Below are positions 3,641-61,366 of a DNA stretch of 62,357 bases, piece after piece. The translations under genes were made by a program, and so were the position numbers. Positions within the stretch are counted from its first letter, which is position 1. Each line of letters starts with the position of its first letter. Under the pieces are notes generated by a model. It made no database searches. It saw only the letters and a program-made list of their open reading frames with translations, and was not told where the DNA came from. This stretch comes from a virus (lineage: Duplodnaviria; Caudoviricetes), in IMG/VR virus record IMGVR_UViG_3300048576_000443, positions 1-62,357 of that record. One strand, given 5' to 3'.

Positions 3641-3995
3641 GGTTTTTCTCCTGATATCCGTTGTGCAGCCCGTGGGAGCGGAGGAAATCCCGAAAAAGGC
3701 TAAAAGCCCCATCTATTGACCCATTGGAGTCTATGCCGCGAGACGTTATCAGCCATGGGAACTCCGTGGACCAAAAATTAGGGATGAAGCAATGCATGGG
3801 GCACTTAAAGGGGAACGAGGGTAGATTCTCATAATTGGGTAATTTCTCGCACACCGGCCAAGTCCCGTTGTATTCCCACCCGTCCCCGTCAGAACCCAAG
3901 TGATTGCAGTTTCCGCATGACGGCCTCAAAGGAAGACCGTCCGCTCCGCGAAGTGGTTTCCAAAAAGCGAGGATTGCGGCCTTGTCTTTACGCAT
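3633..3995 (-). CDS. Hypothetical Cys-containing protein
   Basis: ORF in operon; CxxCxH motif. Confidence 0.55.
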   Translation of the reverse strand: MRKDKAAILAFWKPLRGADGLPLRPSCGNCNHLGSDGDGWEYNGTWPVCEKLPNYENLPSFPFKCPMHCFIPNFWSTEFPWLITSRGIDSNGSIDGAFSLFRDFLRSHGLHNGYQEKNHA

Positions 3996-4687: not shown

Positions 4688-4947
4688 GACTTCTCTTCCT
4701 CCATCTTCTTCTCCCACAGCTCGGCGCAGTCCGGACACAACGGCCCGCCAGGATGTCTGACGTAGTACAAATGCTCACCGCAAAAATATTCATCGCAATA
4801 GTCATCGCCATCGCCGTGCATCCCGCCGCATGCGCTATCCACGCCCCGCATTATGGGGTTATTGCATCCGGGGTAGTCGCACGTCCCGGGGTGGTTGTAC
4901 CCTATCGGTCTGCCTCGGCTGTCTTCTCCGCAGTCTCCCCATCCCAT
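4684..4947 (-). CDS. Hypothetical Cys/His-rich (zinc-binding) phage protein
   Basis: MGWGDCGEDSRGRPIGY..CDYPGC..FCGEHL..CPDC. Confidence 0.7.
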   Translation of the reverse strand: MGWGDCGEDSRGRPIGYNHPGTCDYPGCNNPIMRGVDSACGGMHGDGDDYCDEYFCGEHLYYVRHPGGPLCPDCAELWEKKMEEEKS

Positions 4948-5371: not shown

Positions 5372-6223
5372 TTACGCCGCCCGCTTGGTCCCGTTGGCGG
5401 CGAAACGGATCTTCGTCGCGTCCGGACCTTTGCCCACGGTGATTTCGCTGACGCCCTTCGCGCGCAGCGTCTCCTCCAGGGCCCTCCCGGCGATGCCGAA
5501 GGCCTCTTCCATGGGGTCCGGGGTGGGTTCGACCATTTTGAGCTGGAACGCCTGGGCGCACTCGCGCTGCGTGATGACCGTGCCGTCCGTGGCCAGATGC
5601 AGGCGCCCGCCGGTTGCCTGGGCCGGGACTTCGGCCGCGACCTCGGCGCAGATGACCATGGCGTCGTAGTCCGCCTGATCCTCGGTGCAGGCCAGTTTGA
5701 CCTTGACGTTGCCCTTGTATTTGTTGCCCCGGCGCGACTTGAGGTCATAGGCCACGGTTTGCAGGGCCTGGGCGATGGCCGCCACGGTCTCGCCCTTGTC
5801 GATGTCGAGCAGGACCAGGATGTCCCGGGCTTTGCAGGACAGGTCCGGCGGCAGGTTGGCGCGCTTGAGTTCATCCAGCAGTTCGCCAAGCTCCCCGGCG
5901 TAGTCCATGACCTCGGCCTCGAGTTCGGAAACCCTTGCCTTCATGGCGTCCATGGCCCGGGCCGCGTCGGCGCGGTCCATGACGGACTCGATCCACGCGG
6001 ACATGGCCACTTCGGCCTCAAAGGGGGGCGTGGCGTACACGCCAGCGGCGAAGCTGGCCAGGGATTGGGCCGGAGACGGGGACGCGATGCGGGCCGTCTC
6101 GGCAGGCCTGGGCGCCGTCTGGATGTTACCCTTGACGGCGGCCGGAGGCCTGGCTTTCGTGGCCTTGGGGATTGCGTGCAGGGGCGGGCCCTGCGGCACG
6201 GGACTCGGTTCGGTGTTCAGCAT
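5372..6223 (-). CDS. Hypothetical protein
   Basis: 283-aa ORF with AGGAGG RBS and coding-like GC3 bias. Confidence 0.7.
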   Translation of the reverse strand: MLNTEPSPVPQGPPLHAIPKATKARPPAAVKGNIQTAPRPAETARIASPSPAQSLASFAAGVYATPPFEAEVAMSAWIESVMDRADAARAMDAMKARVSELEAEVMDYAGELGELLDELKRANLPPDLSCKARDILVLLDIDKGETVAAIAQALQTVAYDLKSRRGNKYKGNVKVKLACTEDQADYDAMVICAEVAAEVPAQATGGRLHLATDGTVITQRECAQAFQLKMVEPTPDPMEEAFGIAGRALEETLRAKGVSEITVGKGPDATKIRFAANGTKRAA

Positions 6224-6275
6224 GGTTTTCCTCCTGGATTTTTGTCTTCCTTCCCGGCCGGTCGGAAGGCAGGGG

Positions 6276-6560
6276 CTACTGCCCCAGGGCTTCTTTGCCC
6301 GGTTGAAGGACCGTGATCTTCAAGGCCCGCTTGGCCGGGACCTGGACCGTCTCCCCGGTGCGCGGGTTGCGGCCGGCGCGGGCCTTGCGCTCGATGACCT
6401 TGATCTTGGCGAGGCCGAACAGGTTGATCTCTTCGCCGCCCCGGATGGCGTCGCTAAAGATTCGGCCCAAGGCGTCGTAAACATCGAACGACGCCGGGAC
6501 GGTCATCCCGGTCTTGGCGCGCAACCCATTGGCGATTCCAGCTTTGGTATTGACGTTCAT
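6276..6560 (-). CDS. HU/IHF family DNA-binding protein
   Basis: GEEINLFGLAKIKVIERKARAGRNPRTGETVQVPAKR signature. Confidence 0.92.
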   Translation of the reverse strand: MNVNTKAGIANGLRAKTGMTVPASFDVYDALGRIFSDAIRGGEEINLFGLAKIKVIERKARAGRNPRTGETVQVPAKRALKITVLQPGKEALGQ

Positions 6561-12645: not shown

Positions 12646-12818
12646 GTCGAGCCTGGGGCGAAAGGGCGGCGGGCCGGGCTTGATACCGGCTCCTTTATCG
12701 CCATGAGCCTTACAGGCTGCGCCATGGTTTGATGAGGGCGTACTCTGCCGATGGCATTCCCGCGTGTCCTTCCACGCCGCCGTCCGCCCCCTCGCCCAAG
12801 GCTCGACTTTCAATGATC
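12646..12818 (-). ncRNA. Structured RNA unit 2: boxA-like motif + ~24-bp closing stem enclosing a tRNA-like element
   Basis: GTCGAGCCTTGGGCGAGGGGGCGG pairs with CCGCCCTTTCGCCCCAGGCTCGAC; inside are GCGTGGAAGGACACGC and GCCGGTATCAAGCCCGGC hairpins. Confidence 0.6.
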
Positions 12819-12835
12819 TCTCGCCTTTCGGCCCA

Positions 12836-12935
12836 TGGTCCTTGCCTAGCCCTGCCGTGCCAAGCCAAACCGCGTTCCATGCCTTGCTCTTGCCCCGCCG
12901 GGCCTTGCCCGGCCCCGCCTCGCCGTGTTCCTCGC
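12836..12935 (-). repeat. Degenerate pentanucleotide (GGCNN)n tract
   Basis: Minus strand ...ACGGCGAGGCGGGGCCGGGCAAGGCCCGGCGGGGCAAGAGCAAGGCATGGAACGCGGTTTGGCTTGGCACGGCAGGGCTAGGCAAGG. Confidence 0.7.
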
Positions 12936-13052
12936 TTCCCGCCTCGGTCTCCCTGGCCTCCGCTCCCGTCCGGTGTCTGGGGCTTTGCCCCGCCGTTGCC
13001 GGACCCCGTAGGGTGGGAGGTTTGGCCTCGGTCGCTACTGCGGGCCGCGTTC

Positions 13053-13226
13053 GTTGGGGATGGAGAGAGAAGTGGGGCAGCCGGGGCTTCGGGAATCGAA
13101 CCCGAACATTGGCCAATGAACCGTTGCCCATTGCCGCTTTCGCGCAATCTACGTACCCGGGTCCGGTGATTGCGCAGCCAGCAACCCCCCACCCCTCTCT
13201 CCATCCCCAACTCGGCTTTCAATGAT
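13053..13226 (-). ncRNA. Structured RNA unit 1: boxA-like motif + 25-bp closing stem enclosing a T-loop-containing element
   Basis: GTTGGGGATGGAGAGAGGGGTGGGG pairs with CCCCACTTCTCTCTCCATCCCCAAC (two G-U pairs); inside is TTCGGG-TTCGATT-CCCGAA. Confidence 0.65.
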
Positions 13227-13257
13227 CCGGCCCGTGGGCCGCGTCGTCGTTGATCCA

Positions 13258-29469: not shown

Positions 29470-29534
29470 TGTCCGCAAATGTCCGGATTTGGCCGCAAAT
29501 GTCCGGCCCGCATCTCTTGATTCCCCGGTAAGAT
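29470..29534 (+). promoter_or_regulatory. Late promoter 1 (activator-binding tandem repeat + -10)
   Basis: TGTCCGCAAATGTCCGGATTTGGCCGCAAATGTCCGGC, then TAAGAT. Confidence 0.75.
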
Positions 29535-43194: not shown

Positions 43195-43259
43195 TGTCCG
43201 CAAATGTCCGGATATGGCCGCAAATGTCCGGCTTCAAAACGAGAAACCCTTGCTATGCT
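43195..43259 (+). promoter_or_regulatory. Late promoter 2
   Basis: 37/38 identical to the 29470 motif; TATGCT at the same spacing. Confidence 0.75.
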
Positions 43260-48274: not shown

Positions 48275-49645
48275 ATGTCCACCGACATCGCCAAATCCAA
48301 GCGCGTCAAAGTCTTTGCCGTTCCGGAGGTGACTCCCGGGACCCTCGTTTTTCCCTCCGCCGAGCACTTCATTTGCCCGGCCGGGGAGCCGTCGCTGAAC
48401 CAAGTCCCCACCTACACGGATTCCAAAGAACTGGCCGACACCCTGGACGTGCTTGACCAGTTCCCGGATGCCATGCCCCCGGCAGAGTTCTCGCTTCCCA
48501 TGTACCTGCGCATGGCCGGTTCCGGCGCCGCCCCGCAGGGCGACATCCTTTTCCAGTCCATGCAGGGCAGCAAGCAGGAATCAGGGGCCGTGACCGCCGC
48601 CGTCAACGCCGTGGCCGGGATCGACGCCGATGACGTGACCATCCCCTACGATACCGTCGCTGGCGGAGAGCTCCCCCCGGCGGGCGTCATCCAGATCGGG
48701 GCCGAGAAGATCCGGTATGCCGCCAAGACCGCGACCAACCTGACCGGATGCACGCGGGGCTACGCCGGGACCACCGCTGCGTCGGCACTGGATGACGCCA
48801 GCATCACCCTGCTCTCCCAGGTCTACAAGCAGGCCACGGCAAGCCCGGCGTGCTCCCTGTGGATCATGCGGGATTGGTTCATCCTGTTCTGCTCGGGCGC
48901 CACGGTCAACAACGCTGGCGCCGGACTCAAGAACGAGGACGCCATCCTGTTCAACCTCAAGGGCCAGGGCATGCGCATGGGGTGGGCCGGGCAGTCCGCC
49001 TTGACCGAAGGTGCTTCGGCTGCAGCCACGCAGATCGTGGTTGCGAACGCCAAGGTGTTCACGGTCGGCGCGCGCATCCAGAACGTGACCAAGGGGGCCA
49101 ATAACGCCGGGGCCGGCTTTGCGGTCACGGCCGTGAACGTGGCCACCAAAACCTTGACCCTGGCCACGGCCGTTCCGTCCGGAGGGTGGGCCGAGAACGA
49201 CGTGATTCGCGGCTACCTGCCCGACGCCACACCCATCGGAACGGCCGTCAAGTGCCGGGACACCAAGGTTTACATCGGAGGCGTCGAGGGGCGTATTCGC
49301 TCCACCGACCTGACCATCGACGTGCCGAAGACCTACCTGACGGATGTGATCGGGACCCCGTACCCCGAAGAGTACGTCGAGGACACCCGCAAGATCACCA
49401 CCAACCTGAACGTCTACTTCAAGAAGGCCGACGCCGAGAAGTTCTATGCGGGCTTCAACGGCGAGGAAACCACCGTCGAGTTCATCCTTGGCGACACGCC
49501 CGGCTACAAGTGCAGCCTGTTTTACCCCCGGGTCAAGCTCACCATGCCGACTCTTCGGTCCGAAGGGCCGACCGTCGTCCTTGAAATCCCCGTGACCGCG
49601 CTCGGCACGGCTGGCGAGGACTCTTTCTACATGTGCCTGGAATAG
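48275..49645 (+). CDS. Major tail tube protein with inserted beta domains
   Basis: Position; E.TPG N-terminus; tube-like C-terminus. Confidence 0.8.
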   Translation: MSTDIAKSKRVKVFAVPEVTPGTLVFPSAEHFICPAGEPSLNQVPTYTDSKELADTLDVLDQFPDAMPPAEFSLPMYLRMAGSGAAPQGDILFQSMQGSKQESGAVTAAVNAVAGIDADDVTIPYDTVAGGELPPAGVIQIGAEKIRYAAKTATNLTGCTRGYAGTTAASALDDASITLLSQVYKQATASPACSLWIMRDWFILFCSGATVNNAGAGLKNEDAILFNLKGQGMRMGWAGQSALTEGASAAATQIVVANAKVFTVGARIQNVTKGANNAGAGFAVTAVNVATKTLTLATAVPSGGWAENDVIRGYLPDATPIGTAVKCRDTKVYIGGVEGRIRSTDLTIDVPKTYLTDVIGTPYPEEYVEDTRKITTNLNVYFKKADAEKFYAGFNGEETTVEFILGDTPGYKCSLFYPRVKLTMPTLRSEGPTVVLEIPVTALGTAGEDSFYMCLE

Positions 49646-49737
49646 CCCAAACGCGGGCCGGATAGGGCGCGCGCCCGACAAGCGGACACCCCGGCCGCTT
49701 CCGGCCCGCACAAATCGGGGACCAAGGGGAAATCATC

Positions 49738-50100
49738 ATGAAGTTTTCGCTCAAGCCGAGGCAGCGCACCATCCGGGTTGTGTCCGCCCCGGGCGTCAAG
49801 TGGGCCGTCGTGCCCATGACCACCACCGAGGAGACGGAACTGGCGCGCGGATACCAGGAGTACGACGCCCGCACCAAGACCTATCAGCTCAAGGATTTCC
49901 CGGGCTTCCTGAAGGCCAAGGCCCGCCAGGTCATCCGGGGCTGGTCCGGCCTGCCCGGCGACGACGGCAAGGACATCCCGTACTCGACGGCGGCCCTTGA
50001 GGCCATGTGCGAGATGCACAGCGGCGTCATCACGGAAGTGCTGGCCGAGTCCGGCCGCGCCGACGCCATCGAGGCCGAGGCCGACGAAAAAAACTCCTAG
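49738..50100 (+). CDS. Tail assembly chaperone (lambda gpG analogue)
   Basis: IRGWSGL..G..IPYS; ends EKNS at a slippery site. Confidence 0.8.
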   Translation: MKFSLKPRQRTIRVVSAPGVKWAVVPMTTTEETELARGYQEYDARTKTYQLKDFPGFLKAKARQVIRGWSGLPGDDGKDIPYSTAALEAMCEMHSGVITEVLAESGRADAIEAEADEKNS

Positions 50101-50450
50101 CGTGGTGCGAACGGGTCAAGCCGGGGGGGCAGGAGGCAACGCAGGATGAGTGCTTCGACATCTACAACAACGCCCCCCCCTGCGAGACATGCCCGCGCCG
50201 CGAGATTTGCGAGTCCGACCTTTTCCCGACCAACGCCCTGGCCTGGAAGGTCTGGCGAATCCTGAGCGAGTTTGACCGCCCCTTGGGGGCCATGGGCGGG
50301 GCAGGGCACATCCCGTCCGGAACAGTCCGGGAAGAGGTCCAGGCCAGGGACGGCACAGAACGGGACTTTGAAAAGGTGCTCTTGATCGAACGGACGCTGT
50401 ACCCGGCCCTGTGTGACGCCTGGGAGAAGGCTCGAAAAGACCAAAAATAA
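50086..50450 (+). CDS. -1 frameshift extension of the tail chaperone (gpGT analogue)
   Basis: GAA AAA AAC slippery site at 50086-50094; -1 frame open to 50450. Confidence 0.75.
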
Positions 50451-50681
50451 GCCGGGCGGTTGCGCGCCGCCCGCAAAATTTCCGGCCAAGCAGCATCGGC
50501 CGAGGATCTTTGAAAACCGAGTATGTGTGGATGCGGAAGGGGCCGGGTTCGTTCCCGGCCCCAGGACCACGGGGAGGCGCGGCCTCTCCGACTATTTCTG
50601 TTCTGTCTCCCGGGCGGCCAGAAGCCCCGCGAGAAGTCCACGGAGCCTGGGGCAAGACGATCATCTGACGGGTGGCGGCGT

Positions 50682-51149
50682 CTAAGAGTGACTGGACTCA
50701 CCTTGAGCCGATGACGAAGATTCCTGGCGATATTTTACAATTGGCTTCCACCCACAATCCTTGCATGTGACAGCTAAGTATTTATTTACAGCCTCGCAGT
50801 TGCCACACTTTTTCATAAATTTGACACCAAGTATTCCTTGTGTTTTAATAATAGACCAATCTTTGATGATTTCAATGACGTCGTTTTCCGGGCGTTTATC
50901 GTTATTCAGTAGCTCTTTTCCACAGTATTTGCATATTACTGCTTCTTGCTTCACATACTCAGCGCAGTACGGGCACTTCTTTTCCCCTGCACCAGGTCCA
51001 GATTTTTGGAGTACCAAGACAATAATTAAGGCAATGGGTCCAAAAATAAACCCCAAAACGAACCACCCTGGAGCATTCATTCCTTTATTGGTTGCGATTA
51101 TTGCTGCGGCGATGCCAAGGCCAATCCAAATAATGAGTGCAGTAGCCAT
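50682..51149 (-). CDS. Membrane protein with two zinc ribbons (moron)
   Basis: Two TM helices; KKCPYCAE..CKYC; CGNC..CKDC; low GC. Confidence 0.8.
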   Translation of the reverse strand: MATALIIWIGLGIAAAIIATNKGMNAPGWFVLGFIFGPIALIIVLVLQKSGPGAGEKKCPYCAEYVKQEAVICKYCGKELLNNDKRPENDVIEIIKDWSIIKTQGILGVKFMKKCGNCEAVNKYLAVTCKDCGWKPIVKYRQESSSSAQGESSHS

Positions 51150-51406
51150 AAGTCAACCCGCCATTCTTGTTGATGTTTAGTTCTTGGTTATTTCCGCTTT
51201 CAGGCTCTAATCCTTTATCCACTCACTGCACTCAATACGAACGACGGGCAGAGATGAGTTTCAACCCCACATTTCGGGCGTCTTTTCGTGGTGAACTTGG
51301 GCAACATGGCCTCCCCTATTTCCCGGCCTCGTTATCAGAAACATGATCTGACGGGCAACCCTCCGCATCCACGCATTCTCGGTTTTCGCCAACAAGGGAG
51401 ACGAGA

Positions 51407-54400
51407 ATGCCCGGCATCCGCATAGACGTTAACACCTCCGGCGCACAGGCCAACACCAAGGCCCTCTGGGATGAGCTTCGTCGTCTCGGGGAACAGGGGA
51501 AGCTGACCGAGCGCGAGGTGAAAGAGCTTGGCGCACGTCTCGCGGGCATGGAAGCCGACATGAAAAAGGCGTCCACGGCCGCCCGGGCCACGGGTTCGGC
51601 CATGGATACCCTGACGACGGCCGCGAAATACGCCGCCGCCGCCTTCGCCACGTTCAAAATCGCCGACTACATCCGCGAAAGCGCCGTCCTGGCCGCCCGG
51701 TATGAAACCCTGGGCGTCACCATGGAGACCGTGGGCCGTAACGCCGGATATACGGCCGCGCAGGTCAACTACGTGGCCACGGCCCTGCAGAAGACCGGGA
51801 TATCCATGCTCGAATCCCGGGAGCAGGTGGCGAAACTTATCCAGGCCCACATCGACCTCGCCAAGGCCACGGACCTTGCCCGGCTGGCGCAGGACGCGGC
51901 CGTGGTCGCTGGCCTCAATTCTTCGGAGACATTTTCCCGCCTCGTCTACGGCATCCAGTCCGGCCAGAAGGAAACCCTTGCCACAATAGGCCTGAATGTG
52001 GATTTCGAGGCCTCGTACAAGTCCCTCGCCAACCAACTTAATAAAAACAAGGATCAACTTACCGAACACGACAAGGTTCAAGCCAGATTCAATGCCACAA
52101 TGGCCAGGGCTCCTGACATCGCAGGGAACTACACAAACGCGATGAAGACCGCCGGGAAGGCGATTACCTCTCTCCCAAGATACGAACAGGATTTGCAACT
52201 GAAATTCGGGCAAGCCTTCGGCCCGGCCACAAAGACCCTTGTTGACGCTTATAGTGAATCACTCCTGCGAATGCAGGAGATCGTCACCCGCCCCGAAATC
52301 CAGGCCGCGCTGCAAAACATCGCCAACCTTCTTGCCGGGGCCATCGCCAAAGGCATGACCTTCATTTCGGACTGGCTGGCGCAGAATGGCGGCAGGCTTC
52401 CCGAAATGGCCTACAGCGCGGCCACGGGGTTTGCCCAACTTGCCCGGGACATCGCCTCTGCTGTGTCCGCCCTGGGGAAGTTTTTGGACCAGTTTTCCAG
52501 CATCCCGCCGGAGGTGTTGGTGGTCCTGGGAGCCGCGGCCGCCGGGGGCCTTGCTGCCGGGCCTTGGGGCGCTCTTGGCGCAGCCGGATTGGCGGCCGTG
52601 ACCATGGGGAACATGAGCAACCAGCGTTCCGTGGAAGAAGGGCTGACGCGCGGCGCGGCGAGTGCGGCGGGCGGAACGAACGAAGTCCGGATGCCGGTCA
52701 ACAAGACGGTCCTTGGCGAACCGCAAAAACCTTTGGACCTCACCCCATCCAAGGTCCGCGAGGCCGAAAAGGTGGCCGACGACTTGACCAAGGGGGCCGC
52801 CCGGTTTGCCGAACAGGCGTCGGCCTTCCTGGACAACATCACGGCCGGGATCGAGCAGCTTCAGGACTCCCTGACCGGCGGTACACAGAAAGAATCCCTG
52901 CGCATCGACAAATGGTTTGAGCAGCAATTCGACGCCATCAGCAAGGCTGTGGTGGACGCGAAGGGCGACGTGTCGGCCTACAAAGAAGCCTGGGTTGATC
53001 TTGAGCAGGCGTGGCCGGGCCTCAAAATTCTGGCCGTCACCAAGGACACCACGGCTGCGCTGCGGCAGCAGGCCGACATCCTTAGCGACATCGCCGAGGC
53101 ATCCGACAACCCGGCGCTCAAAGAGCAGGCCGGGGCCAGGGAGATCGAGACTTGGTACGCGGAGCGCGTCCAGCAGATCAAGAACCTGTCTCTCGCCACG
53201 GAAGAAGAATCCACGCTTATGGGTCAGCTTGAACAGGCCCGGGCGTCCAAGATGGTCCAAAACACCCGCGACGCCTATGAGTCCATGTCCGCCGTCTCCC
53301 AAAAGTATTGGGACGCCGAGAAGGCCCTGATCGAACAAAAGCTGTCCGTGGTCAAGGAAAGCGCCGACGACGAACTGGCCTACAAAATTTACGCCGCCCA
53401 GGAATGGGACGACTTCAACCGCCGCAAGCTCGAAGCCCAGGCCAACGCCCCGCGTTCCCAGGGCGAGGCCATCCACGCTGTCTTTGCGCTCGATTCCGGT
53501 TCCTACAAATCCCAGATGGGCCAGCTTCAGGACTCCTGGAAGTCCACGGCCGACGGCATGCTTGCCCTGACCAACGATCTTTCCTCGGGCATCGCGCAAA
53601 GCCTCGGGGATGCGCTTCGGGGCATAGCCCAGGGCGACTTCGAGAGCTTCGAGACCATTTTTCGCTCCATGCTCTTGCGCATGGCCGATGCCTTCATCTC
53701 TTTTTCCGAAGACATGCTGGCACAGGCGCTCAAAGGCGGCCTGTCGTCGCTTTTCCAGGGCGGCGGATCGACGGCCGGCACAGGGGCCGCATCGGGCGGA
53801 GGCGGGCTTATGGGCCTTTTCGGCGGCCTCGTGGAGCCTGCGGCGTCGGCGCTCTTTCAGGGAGGGGCTTCAGCGATTGGGGCCGGGGCGGCCGGAGCTG
53901 GCGGACTGTTCGGCGGAGTATCTGCGCACGTTGGCCAGTCCGCATCAGGACTCATGGGGGCCGCCGGAGCCGCGGCATCCTCCTTCTCCTGGATGCCGGT
54001 CATCGGCGCCGCAGTCGGCGTCGGCCTAAGCCTCTTGGGCAGCCTGTTCGGCCAGGAGGAAGAGGAAGAGCCGCCGCAGGAAGCGTGGTCGGGCCGGTCC
54101 TACATGTACCAAGGCGGCGTCATGAGCGGCATCGACGTGACGACCATGAGCGACGGCTCGACACAGTACGCCATGTCCGACCCCATGGAGATGGAGGAAG
54201 AGCGCAAGCGGTTCAAGTCCACGGTCAAGGACTTGAACGCGGCCATGAAGACCCTTGAGATCGACTTCAACCCGAATTGGGAGCGCAACTTTTCCTTCCA
54301 GGCATTCGGCGTCCCGGACGCACTCAAGGGCATCCTTGAGCGCAACATGAAGGACAGCGCCGCCGCGCAGGCCATGGGCAACGTGTCGTGGACGGCGAAC

Positions 54401-56791
54401 CTTTTCAAGGAGGGCCTGGAAAGCCTGGACGAAACCGTGCGCCGCCTCGCCACGGCGTTCGGGGCGGTGCAGCCGCTCATCGGCCCGCTTGGGATCGACT
54501 TCGAGAAGATGGGCGGGGTGACAGAGGGCGTGTTGCTGGCCTTTGCCTCCATGGCCACGGGGTTCTCCTCGGGCGCCGCCATCGTCACGAACGCAATGCT
54601 CGACGGGGCGGAGTCAGCCGAAGAACTCGCGGAAAGGTTCGCCGCCGCCGGGGAATCAGGCCAGGTCGTGCTGAACTACCTTGAGCAGTACCGAAAGCAA
54701 ATCAGCAACATGATCCTCGCGTCCTATTCCGAGCAGCTTATAGACTCGGTTGGCGGCGACGATGCTTTCCAGCAGGCAATGACGGTTTTCAGCAACTATG
54801 CAATGGGCGACAAGGAACGGGCCACAGCAAGCGTAAATTACTCACGTTCGCAATTCCAGGAAGGTCTATCGAGCATAACCACGCTCCTTCCAAATTTCAA
54901 TCAAGACTGGATTGGAGACAATACAGATGCTTTTTGGGCGGCCTATGCTGCAGCCATGGGCGAGTCAATGCCCCCGTCTGTGTTTGACGAATGGGCCACC
55001 ATCGCGCAGCACGTCGCAAATCTTGAAGACTCCCTGCAGGACCTCGCGGATATCGAGTTCGCGGAGTGGGCGTGGGACGAGGAATTGAAGTACCGCCGCC
55101 AAGTTGCAGCCGAACAGACGACAGGTGCGGAGATCACGCGGTGGTCTATCAGCATGGAGCAGGAGCTTGCCGACGCCCGTAAAAACGGCGCGTCCTATGC
55201 GCAGCAGGCCGCGCTCGTGGAGACGCAGATTTACGAGATGCAGGCCAAGCTGGCGAAGCTCCAGGGGACTGATGTTGAGCCGCAGGACATGGAATCCGTG
55301 ATTGATCGTCTTGGCGACGCCGTTGCACGGCAGGTTTCCGTTCTACAGGAACTTGCATCCGAAGCGTCAGCCGCAGCAACGGCATTTGAATCCCTTGGCG
55401 AATCTCTCCGGGATGCCATTGATGGACTATCGGACGACATCAGCAACCCAATGGAAGACTTCCTGAAGCACAGGGCTTCTTTCAACAAGCAATTCTCTCT
55501 TGCCATGAAGGGCTTCGACGCCGACTCGCAAGAGGCTATGGGCGAGTTGTCCGGCATAGCCGAAGACATGCTTGAGGCTGCCAAGCAAAGCATGGGCTAC
55601 GAGGAATACCAGCTTTTGAAGGCCCGGACGGTTTCGCGGCTTGGCAAGGCCGCGACCCGGGCGGAACTCCAGGGCGAATACGGCGCCGTGGCGTCCGACC
55701 TCTACACCACGGAAAGCGGACTTCTCTCCCGCGTGCAGGAAGACCTTTCGAGCGGGACGCCGAACGCGGATTTTGTCGCCAAGGCCAACGAGCTTTTTGA
55801 AAAGCTGTCTCTGGTGTCAGACGCCGCCAAAAGCGTGGCCGAGGGGGACATGAGCGAGTCCGCCTTTTCCGCCCTGGCCCGCAAAACGGAAAGCGACCTT
55901 CTGTCCGGCGCGAACATGAAGGAACTTTTGGCCGGAACCCTTGACCTTGGGAACATCGACCAGAATCAGGCCCGGATGCTCCTTTCATCCGTGGACGCGC
56001 TTGAATCCCTGGAAAAATATACCGGCCACGATGTGGACCTTGCCGACAAGATGCGTCTCCAGCTTGAAACCATCGCGGCGGGCGTCACGGATCAGTCGCA
56101 GTGGTCAACCCTCGTGGCGCAGATCGACGCGGGCCAGGACGAATACATCTCGTGGCTCAAGACCAGCATTGAAGAGCGCCGCAAGGAAGCCGACAGGCTG
56201 TATGCGCTAAATGAAAGCGAAGTAGACTCATCGGAGCGCATGGAAGCGTATTTCAAGGCCGTTTCGCAGTATCTACTGAAGCAGACAAGCATTGAAACCA
56301 TATCGAAGCAAATATCCACACTGAACTCGCAGTCTGCTTCTTTAAGCGCCCTTGCGAACCAAGCTGCAATCCAAGCGACAATGACCGGGAACTGGTCAGC
56401 TTTCAACCAATACATGCAGCAGGTTCAGCAAATAAACAGCCAAGTCAGCGCCCTACAGCAGCAATTAAATTACTGGCTGAACTTGGTGGTCGATATCCCT
56501 GAATTTGCCACGGGCGGCATCGTCTTCGAGCGAACCCTGGCGACGATTGGCGAGGCCGGGCCAGAGGCCGTTGTTCCCCTGGAAGGGGGCGCAATCCCTG
56601 TCCATGTCTATGGCGGCGGGGGCGGGGCCAGCGACGAGCTATGCGACGAGGTCCGCGCGATGCGGAAGGAGTTGTTGGCGGTAGCGCAGGAGGTGGCAAA
56701 AAACACCAGGGCGACAGCATACCACACATACGACACCAGCCGCGCCATTGAGCGGTCCAACCTCGCAGCAGAAGCGGGCACAGGAGCATAG
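51407..56791 (+). CDS. Tail tape measure protein
   Basis: 1794 aa, Ala-rich helical; C-terminal FATGG..IGEAGPEAVVPL. Confidence 0.92.
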   Translation: MPGIRIDVNTSGAQANTKALWDELRRLGEQGKLTEREVKELGARLAGMEADMKKASTAARATGSAMDTLTTAAKYAAAAFATFKIADYIRESAVLAARYETLGVTMETVGRNAGYTAAQVNYVATALQKTGISMLESREQVAKLIQAHIDLAKATDLARLAQDAAVVAGLNSSETFSRLVYGIQSGQKETLATIGLNVDFEASYKSLANQLNKNKDQLTEHDKVQARFNATMARAPDIAGNYTNAMKTAGKAITSLPRYEQDLQLKFGQAFGPATKTLVDAYSESLLRMQEIVTRPEIQAALQNIANLLAGAIAKGMTFISDWLAQNGGRLPEMAYSAATGFAQLARDIASAVSALGKFLDQFSSIPPEVLVVLGAAAAGGLAAGPWGALGAAGLAAVTMGNMSNQRSVEEGLTRGAASAAGGTNEVRMPVNKTVLGEPQKPLDLTPSKVREAEKVADDLTKGAARFAEQASAFLDNITAGIEQLQDSLTGGTQKESLRIDKWFEQQFDAISKAVVDAKGDVSAYKEAWVDLEQAWPGLKILAVTKDTTAALRQQADILSDIAEASDNPALKEQAGAREIETWYAERVQQIKNLSLATEEESTLMGQLEQARASKMVQNTRDAYESMSAVSQKYWDAEKALIEQKLSVVKESADDELAYKIYAAQEWDDFNRRKLEAQANAPRSQGEAIHAVFALDSGSYKSQMGQLQDSWKSTADGMLALTNDLSSGIAQSLGDALRGIAQGDFESFETIFRSMLLRMADAFISFSEDMLAQALKGGLSSLFQGGGSTAGTGAASGGGGLMGLFGGLVEPAASALFQGGASAIGAGAAGAGGLFGGVSAHVGQSASGLMGAAGAAASSFSWMPVIGAAVGVGLSLLGSLFGQEEEEEPPQEAWSGRSYMYQGGVMSGIDVTTMSDGSTQYAMSDPMEMEEERKRFKSTVKDLNAAMKTLEIDFNPNWERNFSFQAFGVPDALKGILERNMKDSAAAQAMGNVSWTANLFKEGLESLDETVRRLATAFGAVQPLIGPLGIDFEKMGGVTEGVLLAFASMATGFSSGAAIVTNAMLDGAESAEELAERFAAAGESGQVVLNYLEQYRKQISNMILASYSEQLIDSVGGDDAFQQAMTVFSNYAMGDKERATASVNYSRSQFQEGLSSITTLLPNFNQDWIGDNTDAFWAAYAAAMGESMPPSVFDEWATIAQHVANLEDSLQDLADIEFAEWAWDEELKYRRQVAAEQTTGAEITRWSISMEQELADARKNGASYAQQAALVETQIYEMQAKLAKLQGTDVEPQDMESVIDRLGDAVARQVSVLQELASEASAAATAFESLGESLRDAIDGLSDDISNPMEDFLKHRASFNKQFSLAMKGFDADSQEAMGELSGIAEDMLEAAKQSMGYEEYQLLKARTVSRLGKAATRAELQGEYGAVASDLYTTESGLLSRVQEDLSSGTPNADFVAKANELFEKLSLVSDAAKSVAEGDMSESAFSALARKTESDLLSGANMKELLAGTLDLGNIDQNQARMLLSSVDALESLEKYTGHDVDLADKMRLQLETIAAGVTDQSQWSTLVAQIDAGQDEYISWLKTSIEERRKEADRLYALNESEVDSSERMEAYFKAVSQYLLKQTSIETISKQISTLNSQSASLSALANQAAIQATMTGNWSAFNQYMQQVQQINSQVSALQQQLNYWLNLVVDIPEFATGGIVFERTLATIGEAGPEAVVPLEGGAIPVHVYGGGGGASDELCDEVRAMRKELLAVAQEVAKNTRATAYHTYDTSRAIERSNLAAEAGTGA

Positions 56792-61231: not shown

Positions 61232-61316
61232 TACGTTTTTTGATCCAGGGCGACGTGGGGCGATGTGGTTTTTATGGGCACAAAGTTAAGAAAAGCGGGG
61301 CGAAGGGGAGGCATCA

Positions 61317-61366
61317 CCGGCCTGTCACGTCGGAGGGCGCGAGTTCGAGTCTCGTCGGCCCCGCCA
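61317..61366 (+). other. attR core: 3' half of tRNA-Asp(GTC)
   Basis: CCGGC-CTGTCAC-GTCGG anticodon arm, GCGAG-TTCGAGT-CTCGT T arm, CGGCCCC-G-CCA; no D arm upstream. Confidence 0.85.

What the first reader, a model, noticed from the sequence alone, without database searches (positions are those of the whole stretch)
50491..51410. Long-range RNA switch across a moron that could gate tape-measure translation
Seen: (i) a third boxA-like motif, GATCTTTGAAAACCGAG (50505), after a hairpin and followed by boxC-like TGTGTGG. (ii) 50512-50537 is complementary to 51362-51387 (24/26 Watson-Crick plus one G-U), ~850 nt away, and GGGGAGGC (50571) also pairs with GCCTCCCC (51309). (iii) The same downstream arm can instead form a local hairpin, GCATTCTCG-G-TTTTC / GGAGA-CGAGAATGC, burying the SD and ATG (51407) of the tape-measure gene. 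(iv) A tRNA-3'-half-like CCGGG-TTCGTT-CCCGG-CCCCAGG-ACCA lies at 50543-50569. Inference: Nus-assisted looping, as in rrn processing stalks, delivers an anti-anti-SD, so the tape measure is translated only from transcripts that carry the chaperone genes, while the antisense moron is looped out or excised by RNase III. The same architecture as the PL units suggests one phage-wide RNA system.
Basis: partly seen in the sequence, partly recalled or inferred. Interest (0 to 1): 0.82.

Follow-up and report, generated by a model that had tools for sequence, protein, structure and literature searches.

The report
rRNA-style RNA clamp around phage cargo
A prophage of sulfate-reducing bacteria keeps two complementary sequences, led by a signal like the one at the start of ribosomal RNA operons, on either side of a slot for foreign genes inside its tail operon, probably so that its late RNA can read across the slot and still make the tape-measure protein.

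Summary
The core observation is real. Arms 50512-50540 and 51359-51387 are 26 Watson-Crick pairs plus 1 G-U of 29, and they are the best inverted repeat in the whole 62-kb record.

Two other phage lineages, G001 and G003, keep the same arms almost letter for letter. Their arms bracket unrelated cargo of 4162 and 5435 nt, against 818 nt here.

The motif GATCTTTGAAAA abuts the left arm. It differs by one base from the boxA of Desulfovibrionaceae rrn leaders, and in those leaders boxA likewise lies in the 5' strand of the predicted 16S leader-trailer helix.

A cargo-free relative overlaps the chaperone stop with the tape-measure start as TAATG. Modelling puts the cost of opening the tape-measure start 8.4 kcal/mol lower when the left arm is present.

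Not supported: the tRNA-like reading and the second 8-nt pairing.

Not tested: Nus binding, RNase III cleavage and the translation effect. No compensatory change and no RNA data were found.

Verdict: a new variant of a known kind, an rrn-style boxA plus long-range helix bridging a moron slot. Interest is moderate to high.

The parts
49738..50100 (+). Tail assembly chaperone G (120 aa), with slippery A AAA AAC at 50088-50094 before its stop
   Evidence: ORF; phrog_313 tail assembly chaperone, E 8.9e-6; slippery heptamer read from the sequence
50007..50450 (+). T-frame extension (product of -1 frameshift G-T), stop TAA at 50448-50450
   Evidence: Open frame overlapping the end of G; the frameshift itself is inferred
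50453..50473 (-). Terminator-like hairpin for leftward (cargo) transcripts, directly after the T stop
   Evidence: 7 G-C pairs followed by a T-rich tail on the minus strand; conserved in G001 and G003
50481..50506 (+). Small hairpin in front of the boxA-like motif
   Evidence: Predicted fold; conserved in G001 and G003 with one loop change
50505..50516 (+). boxA-like motif GATCTTTGAAAA, part of the 17-nt motif 50505-50521 shared with the two early-leader units
50512..50540 (+). Left arm of the long-range helix
   Evidence: conserved in G001 and G003; similarity to G001 ends at 50542
50539..50562 (+).
   Evidence: Fold; stem kept with different loops in G001 and G003; no tRNA call
50570..50590 (+). 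Second hairpin, terminator-like on the + strand
50682..51149 (-). Cargo gene: 155-aa protein with zinc-ribbon domains, in DNA of GC about 0.40 within a phage region of about 0.65
   Evidence: Pfam Zn_ribbon_3 and DZR; phrog_8436. The N-terminal hydrophobic stretch is my reading of the translation
51309..51359 (.). Conserved segment just inside the right arm. It could hold a leftward cargo promoter, but that is my reading only
   Evidence: Conserved in G001; in G003 it lies 740 nt further from the arm; no promoter predicted here
51359..51387 (+). Right arm of the long-range helix; its 3' half also pairs with the tape-measure start
51373..51410 (+). Local hairpin (51373-51381 with 51402-51410) covering the Shine-Dalgarno GGGAGA (51396-51401) and the ATG (51407)
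51407..56791 (+). Tape measure protein gene (1794 aa)
   Evidence: ORF; phrog_1535, E 4.8e-13
13053..13227 (-). Early-leader unit 1: same 17-nt motif, then a 25-bp stem (23 Watson-Crick + 2 G-U on the minus-strand RNA) enclosing about 110 nt
12646..12818 (-). Early-leader unit 2: same 17-nt motif, then a 24-nt stem (21 Watson-Crick + 2 G-U + 1 mismatch on the minus-strand RNA)

Best explanation
The element is an rrn-leader-like module that lets a slot for foreign genes sit inside the essential late tail operon.

Shown:
- A boxA-like motif abuts a 26-29-nt arm just after the chaperone G-T genes.
- The complementary arm lies 19 nt before the tape-measure start.
- Everything between the arms is exchangeable cargo, mostly on the other strand.

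Inferred mechanism:
- The late transcript must cross 0.8-5.4 kb of probably untranslated, C-rich antisense RNA.
- boxA recruits the host NusB/NusE-type complex, making the polymerase resistant to Rho. As proposed for 16S rRNA, the complex also keeps the left arm near the polymerase until the right arm emerges.
- The two arms then form a leader-trailer-like helix that loops out the cargo.
- The 3' half of the right arm would otherwise fold onto the Shine-Dalgarno and ATG of the tape-measure gene, so helix formation (or RNase III cutting of the helix) frees that start.
- Transcripts that begin inside the cargo lack the left arm and keep the start closed.

This would replace the direct stop-start coupling (TAATG) seen in a cargo-free relative.
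For: - Arms: 26 Watson-Crick + 1 G-U of 29, E 5.1e-5, and the best inverted repeat of the window.
- Conservation: the same arms bracket unrelated cargo in G001 (4162 nt) and G003 (5435 nt). All 3 lineages that have the motif after G-T also have the right arm.
- Right-side island: DNA similarity to G001 and G003 is confined to about 130 nt (51309-51443), while the tape measures diverge straight afterwards and are 27-30% identical over the first 162-199 residues.
- The only arm change seen (C to T in G003) keeps a G-U pair on the + strand.
- boxA: one base from the host-family rrn boxA (9 of 9 leaders carry a boxA-like match). In 8 of 8 rrn operons tested, the predicted 16S leader-trailer duplex covers all or the 3' part of boxA, which is the layout seen here.
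- Motif family: the 17-nt motif occurs 3 times in this record (control 0), and each copy sits directly 5' of a stem that appears among the 27 inverted repeats one search lists for the window (ranks 1 and 2, and one of the 29.5-bit hits). The two early-leader stems have 4 G-U and no A-C on the motif-bearing strand.
- The + strand across the cargo is C-rich (GC skew -0.05 to -0.24).
- Modelling: the long-range pairs have probability near 1 in the 1-kb RNA and the local hairpin 0. Without the left arm, the local hairpin pairs have probability 0.6-1.0. Opening 51394-51412 costs 15.2-15.3 kcal/mol without the left arm and 6.9 with it.
- The cargo-free relative G011 has TAATG coupling.
- Literature: boxA-tethered looping and leader-trailer helices (PMC4807359 passages; PMC10250234 Introduction and section 12).
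Against: - No compensatory double change: the arms are almost invariant in the three lineages found, so covariation cannot speak.
- In the window itself the wobble count is strand-neutral (one G-U and one A-C on either strand).
- In the model the ATG stays mostly paired even with the helix formed (unpaired 0.05 against 0.03). Only the opening energy changes.
- The local hairpin's fold energy is not unusual (z = -0.77).
- A + strand terminator-like hairpin lies inside the loop (50570-50590).
- Relatives G004 and G388 carry 7.4 and 3.4 kb of cargo at the same place with no motif and no arms, and with a + strand terminator after G-T. The slot therefore works without this device.
- Kinetics: the local hairpin can form long before a partner 0.8-5.4 kb away finds it, unless tethering is real.
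- No RNA data.
Confidence: 0.45

Rival explanations
1. The arms are conserved module-boundary sequences with no RNA role. One inverted duplication arose when cargo first entered, and the flanks persist because phages swap cargo and tape-measure modules by homologous recombination there.
For: Similarity between lineages breaks exactly at the inner edges of the arms (50542; 51359-51363). Several cargo versions join the same right arm in one metagenome run. The tape measure diverges after about 12 conserved codons. No covariation was found.
Against: This does not explain why the two boundaries should be complementary to each other. It also does not explain why a host-type boxA abuts one of them, why the same motif-plus-stem design recurs twice in the early leader with G-U pairs, or why the right arm is also complementary to the start site.
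Confidence: 0.18
2. The helix forms on the late RNA but serves only as an RNase III processing or insulation site, cutting out the antisense cargo RNA and separating upstream from downstream messages. It does not gate the tape-measure start.
For: A 26-29-bp near-perfect helix is long enough for RNase III (the length requirement is recalled). rrn leader-trailer helices are cut by RNase III (PMC10250234 Introduction). In the model the ATG remains largely paired either way.
Against: The 9-bp match of the right arm to the start region, and the 8.4 kcal/mol predicted difference, would then be coincidence. Cleavage could not be tested.
Confidence: 0.15
3. The helix forms on the leftward (cargo) transcript, pairing its two ends to stabilise or process the cargo message in the lysogen.
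For: Cargo genes are mostly on the minus strand. In the window the arm pairing is equally good on either strand. A minus-strand terminator lies just beyond the left arm.
Against: No promoter-like site was found right of the right arm. A minus-strand terminator-like site inside the tape-measure gene (51593-51573) would block incoming transcripts. The boxA-like motif reads on the + strand. The G003 change gives G-U on + and A-C on minus.
Confidence: 0.1
4. The arms are sites of a DNA inversion switch that flips the cargo.
For: An inverted repeat of about 26 bp flanks a segment whose genes face the other way.
Against: The window's cargo holds no recombinase, only one zinc-ribbon protein. The G001-type cargo has the same orientation in every assembly seen: G001, G002, L063, L070 and a 21-kb contig of run X3. 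No strand-changing joint was listed (contigs only, so this is weak). By inspection the arms have no internal dyad symmetry.
Confidence: 0.04
5. The arms are terminal inverted repeats of a small transposable element that carries the cargo.
For: Inverted ends around low-GC foreign DNA.
Against: There is no transposase and, by inspection, no target-site duplication beside the arms. The record holds no further copy. In the collection scans the arms were found only at this position, in related phages or in their remnants. The left arm overlaps the boxA-like motif and the right arm overlaps the start-site hairpin.
Confidence: 0.03

Closest known systems
rrn operon leader: boxA plus the 16S leader-trailer helix (rrn antitermination complex, Nus-mediated looping)
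   Same: A boxA one base from the host-family consensus sits at the 5' base of a helix longer than 17 bp that closes a kilobase-scale loop of RNA that is probably untranslated. A small hairpin precedes boxA, and a GT-rich run lies in the 5' strand (PMC10250234, PMC4807359).
   Different: It encloses exchangeable protein-coding cargo read antisense, not rRNA. It sits in the middle of a phage late operon. The 3' arm doubles as an anti-start sequence for the next gene. Nus binding and RNase III cutting are untested.
Lambda-type nut sites (boxA, boxB, N protein)
   Same: A phage uses a host-type boxA in its transcripts. Two further units lie in the early leftward leader, where nutL would be.
   Different: The hairpin lies before boxA, not after it. 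What follows boxA is a 24-29-bp stem closing 110 nt to 5.4 kb. No N-like protein was looked for. A boxA inside a late operon is not part of the lambda scheme (recalled).
boxA in front of other long untranslated RNAs, such as CRISPR arrays, and boxA-regulated mRNAs (suhB)
   Same: boxA placed where Rho would otherwise stop transcription of untranslated RNA. The suhB case and the prediction of widespread boxA use are in PMC12360218 passages and in PMC5725501 (abstract start only).
   Different: Those cases have no long-range helix partner. The CRISPR-array case is recalled, not read here; only papers that use boxA in CRISPR constructs appeared in a listing.
Translational coupling and long-range RNA control of start sites (stop-start overlap; long-distance pairing in RNA phages, recalled)
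   Same: The cargo-free relative couples the T-frame stop to the tape-measure start as TAATG. Here a distant upstream sequence is predicted to open the start.
   Different: The distance is 0.8-5.4 kb across foreign genes, and the upstream partner is untranslated leader-like RNA rather than a translated region.
Phage morons
   Same: Low-GC, oppositely oriented cargo with its own terminator inside a late operon: zinc-ribbon protein here; HicAB, ParE-HTH and Bro-N in relatives.
   Different: Morons are not known to me to come with a conserved bracketing helix and a boxA. Searches found no such description.

Membership tests
rrn-type boxA / leader-trailer helix module | boxA matching the host's rrn boxA | tested here: met
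   Core TCTTTGAAAA against TCTTTGACAA. 9 of 9 Desulfovibrionaceae leaders carry a boxA-like match, 8 with exactly that core and one reading TCATTGACAA, the variant seen in the early-leader units. The host family is inferred from a related remnant in a Desulfolutivibrio MAG.
rrn-type boxA / leader-trailer helix module | boxA lies at or in the 5' strand of a long-range helix of more than 17 bp | tested here: met
   The motif overlaps the left arm by 5 nt and the helix is 26-29 bp. In host-family rrn operons the predicted duplex covers all or part of boxA in 8 of 8. The >17 bp requirement is from PMC10250234.
rrn-type boxA / leader-trailer helix module | The helix encloses an rRNA | tested here: not met
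   It encloses a zinc-ribbon gene here, and toxin-antitoxin, Bro-N and other genes in relatives. It is therefore not an rrn leader, only built like one.
rrn-type boxA / leader-trailer helix module | NusB/NusE bind boxA; RNase III cuts the helix | not testable with these tools
   Needs binding and cleavage assays or RNA-end data. No RNA holder was listed.
rrn-type boxA / leader-trailer helix module | Helix supported by covariation | tested here: inconclusive
   Three lineages with near-identical arms; one C-to-T keeps a G-U pair; no double change.
Lambda-type nut site | boxA followed by a short boxB hairpin bound by an N protein | tested here: not met
   The small hairpin precedes the motif, and a long stem follows it. 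An N-like gene was not searched for.
Invertible DNA segment (Hin/Gin-type or tyrosine-recombinase switches) | Recombinase nearby, and both orientations found | tested here: not met
   No recombinase in the window's cargo. One orientation in all assemblies of the G001 type, and no strand-changing joints. Contigs only, so absence is weak.
Transposon or MITE terminal inverted repeats | Target-site duplication and multiple genomic copies | tested here: not met
   No duplication beside the arms by inspection. No other copy in the record. In the collection scans the arms occur only in related phages or their remnants, at this position.
   ARAGORN finds none. Rfam finds none in 50400-51450 at E up to 5. 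Loops differ in G001 and G003.
Moron | Foreign composition, own transcription signals, inserted between phage genes | tested here: met
   GC 0.40 against 0.65; minus-strand terminator; relatives with no cargo or with other cargo. Its promoter was not identified.

The most novel reading that the evidence does not exclude
Phages of this group have copied the design of their host's ribosomal RNA leader, boxA plus a leader-trailer helix, and use it as a portable insulator. Any foreign gene set dropped between the arms is transcribed through without Rho polarity and looped out. The next essential gene is then translated only from genuine late transcripts. The same motif-plus-stem design in the early leader would make this one Nus-dependent RNA system used across the phage.
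Probability: 0.35. Interest if true: 0.8.

Novelty: new variant of a known kind. Interest (0 to 1): 0.62.

Why it matters
Morons and defence genes sit inside essential phage operons, often on the opposite strand. How the phage avoids polarity and mis-expression across them is rarely addressed.

A conserved, host-mimicking boxA plus a kilobase-range helix around a cargo slot would be a concrete, testable answer. It would extend the Nus looping and leader-trailer principle from rRNA to messenger RNA. It would also give a transcript-origin check: only RNAs that start upstream could translate the tape measure.

The element further marks a recombination-friendly docking site for toxin-antitoxin and other cargo in Desulfovibrionaceae prophages.

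Tried and rejected
Searches that gave nothing or only noise:
- Phage GenBank collection by blastn: no match.
- Collection scans with a degenerate arm pattern returned 4 stretches (viral), 22 (genome) and 54 (metagenome). After BLAST screening, only the three IMG/VR contigs already known plus L024, L063, L070 and L098 were relatives. The rest were short chance matches, as expected for a 19-mer in these volumes. L083 is a chance match inside an integrase-like coding frame.
- L070 is a truncated copy of the G001 type.
- L098 and G006 (L099) are decayed prophage remnants that have the right arm only. G156 (L111) is a remnant with the same deletion joint and no right arm in the 9 kb fetched. They say nothing on function.
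- A pattern on the tape-measure start found the same three viral contigs.
- The 17-nt motif occurred in 1 of 401 family genomes, and that hit looks coding.
- Duplex scans in G388 gave high-GC background with no credible arms.
- Earlier scan notes by sequence and by words: nothing.

Sequencing runs: no RNA holder was listed. The four runs laid were contigs only. They showed cargo variants and no strand-changing joint, and they cannot show RNA ends or rare inversions.

Literature:
- PMC10884400 was checked for a moron near the tape measure. Its moron lies between the terminase genes, so it is not comparable.
- A search for long-range RNA, RNase III and late operon in phages found 0 papers.
- Supplementary files were not opened.

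Rejected readings: tRNA-like 3' half; the second 8-nt pairing; the other two boxA-like hits in coding frames at 1131 and 32938; inversion switch; transposon ends.
Full report
**Setting.** The window is a complete IMG/VR provirus record of 62,357 nt with GC 0.60. The finding lies in the tail module:
- a 456-aa tail protein gene, 48275-49645
- chaperone G, 49738-50100 (phrog_313)
- an overlapping T frame to 50450, reached through an A AAA AAC slippery site
- a 956-nt gap
- the 1794-aa tape-measure gene from 51407

The gap holds low-GC DNA (0.40 against about 0.65). It carries one minus-strand gene for a 155-aa zinc-ribbon protein.

**The observation.**
- The arms 50512-50540 and 51359-51387 pair with 26 Watson-Crick pairs, 1 G-U and 2 mismatches of 29. 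Within the record the match has E = 5.1e-5. In a self-comparison of the whole window it is the top-scoring inverted repeat.
- The local alternative is real. 51373-51381 pairs perfectly with 51402-51410, which includes the ATG, and further pairs reach the Shine-Dalgarno.
Its left partner is held in a local hairpin in every fold, and I found no counterpart of the pairing in the alignments with G001 and G003. I treat it as chance.
- The tRNA-like reading fails. ARAGORN finds no tRNA, and Rfam finds nothing in 50400-51450 even at E up to 5. Relatives keep a GC hairpin there with unrelated loops.

**Relatives.** Searches with the chaperone and tape-measure proteins and with arm patterns gave three lineages that carry both arms:
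- the window
- the G001 type, also seen as G002, L063, L070 and in contigs of runs X1 and X3
- G003

The arms and the motif are almost identical in all three. The DNA between them is unrelated and measures 818, 4162 and 5435 nt. Cargo in the relatives includes HicA/HicB, a ParE-like toxin with an HTH partner, a ribbon-helix-helix protein, Bro-N proteins and another zinc-ribbon protein.

Similarity between the window and G001 stops at 50542, the inner edge of the left arm. On the right, similarity to both relatives is confined to 51309-51443. That island holds the right arm, the ribosome site and about 12 codons. After it the tape measures diverge, to 27-30% identity over the first 162-199 residues. 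In G003 a further 740 nt sits exactly between the conserved inner segment and the right arm.

One run held at least three different contigs that join the same right arm.

The only arm difference is a C-to-T in the G003 left arm, which keeps a G-U pair on the + strand. There is no compensatory double change, so covariation is uninformative.

**Other states of the same junction.**
- G011 has no cargo. The T-frame stop overlaps the tape-measure start as TAATG.
- G004 and G388 carry 7.4 and 3.4 kb of cargo without the motif or arms, and they have a hairpin plus T-run on the + strand directly after G-T.
- G006, G156 and L098 are decayed remnants.

So 5 of 6 intact lineages have cargo here, and 3 of those 5 have the arm device.

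**The boxA question.** A related remnant lies in a Desulfolutivibrio MAG, so I took Desulfovibrionaceae as the likely host family.
- Of 26 family genomes searched, 11 had 16S matches.
- In all 9 loci with a 16S 5' end, a boxA-like match (at most 2 mismatches to the phage core) lies 88-124 nt upstream. Eight read TCTTTGACAA and one TCATTGACAA. A tenth locus with a partial 16S was left out.
- The phage core differs from TCTTTGACAA by one base.
- In 8 of 8 operons tested, the best predicted duplex between the 140-nt leader and the 120-nt trailer runs from boxA, or from its 3' part, into the following 20 nt. Leader and trailer letters differ between genomes while staying complementary. The locus with a truncated leader was left out.

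This is the layout of the phage element, where the motif's last 5 nt and the next 24 form the left arm. [quoted passage not shown] It also describes a model in which Nus factors and SuhB tether boxA to the polymerase so that the upstream arm meets the downstream arm (PMC4807359, passages).

**A shared design in the phage.**
- I confirmed that the 17-nt motif (degenerate form) occurs three times in the record and never in the reversed control.
- It occurs twice in G001 and once each in G002 and G003. It is absent from G004. It occurs in 1 of 401 family genomes, and that hit looks coding.
- Each copy sits directly 5' of a stem listed among the window's inverted repeats. The pair in this finding ranks first, unit 1 second, and unit 2 is among the 29.5-bit hits.
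- The two early stems have 4 G-U and no A-C pairs on the motif-bearing strand. On the other strand those positions are mismatches. They are therefore RNA helices of that strand. By analogy, the late unit should act on the + strand.

**Mechanism.**
If that reading is right, the tape-measure gene is reached only by reading through the cargo.
- That stretch is antisense to the cargo gene, probably untranslated, and C-rich on the + strand. It should be a good Rho substrate; this step is inference.
- A boxA in front of it fits antitermination. boxA next to the left arm fits tethered delivery.
- In folds of the 1-kb RNA the long-range pairs have probability near 1 and the local hairpin 0. In RNAs that start inside the cargo, the local hairpin pairs have probability 0.6-1.0.
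- The predicted cost of opening 51394-51412 is 15.2-15.3 kcal/mol without the left arm and 6.9 with it. An RNA with no right arm costs 6.6.
It also suggests the device replaces the TAATG coupling of the cargo-free relative.

**Evidence against this reading.**
- In the model the ATG stays mostly paired in either state.
- The local hairpin is not energetically unusual.
- A + strand terminator-like hairpin lies inside the loop.
- Two lineages manage cargo without the device.
- There are no RNA data.
- Nothing shows Nus binding or RNase III cutting.

**Rivals.**
- Boundary sequences kept only for recombination fit the break points. They do not explain the complementarity, the boxA, or the recurrence of the design.
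- A processing-only helix is possible.
- A helix on the cargo transcript is less likely given the motif's strand, the G003 change and the predicted signals.
- Inversion and transposon ends have no support.

**Novelty.** boxA, leader-trailer helices, morons and start-site hairpins are all known. I found no description of a boxA-led kilobase helix bracketing a cargo slot in a phage late operon in searches of the held library. Supplements were not opened, and subscription journals are largely missing from that library. I rate it a new variant of a known kind, with moderate to high interest, resting on comparative and modelling evidence only.

Noticed in passing
window 49655-49720 (+): Rfam int-alpA RNA match above its gathering score (46.7 bits against 35.8), between the 456-aa tail protein gene and the chaperone gene. 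This is an odd place for a motif named after integrase and alpA genes. The stretch is conserved in relatives.
   Followed up: no
window 12646-13227 (-): Two early-leader units share the 17-nt motif used in the finding, each followed by a 24-25-bp stem with G-U pairs enclosing about 110 nt. The G001 counterpart encloses several T-arm-like pieces.
   Followed up: partly
window 61296-61363 (+): Weak Rfam tRNA match (30.2 bits against 29) that ARAGORN does not call. It may be a tRNA fragment near the prophage end.
   Followed up: no
L112 (G011), minus strand, about 3982-3986: A cargo-free relative in which the chaperone T-frame stop overlaps the tape-measure start as TAATG.
   Followed up: yes
L099 (G006) about 2050-2060 and L111 (G156) 2195-2196: Two different species genomes hold prophage remnants with the same deletion joint, from inside the chaperone gene to the hairpin after the left arm. 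The remnant is either old or was transferred.
   Followed up: partly
L016 (G003) 5678-6416: An extra 740 nt lies exactly between the conserved inner segment and the right arm, so new DNA has entered right at the arm's inner edge.
   Followed up: no
L110 (G388) about 4805-4840: In the arm-less clade the tape-measure Shine-Dalgarno also lies in a local 8-bp hairpin. A closed start may be general for this gene.
   Followed up: no
window 51309-51359: A 50-nt segment just inside the right arm is conserved across different cargos. Read on the minus strand it has weak promoter-like hexamers by eye, but the promoter scan did not report it.
   Followed up: no
window 29470-29505 and 43195-43230 (+): The four-unit 10-bp-period element noted earlier occurs only at these two places (4 overlapping matches against 0.09 expected).
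   Followed up: partly
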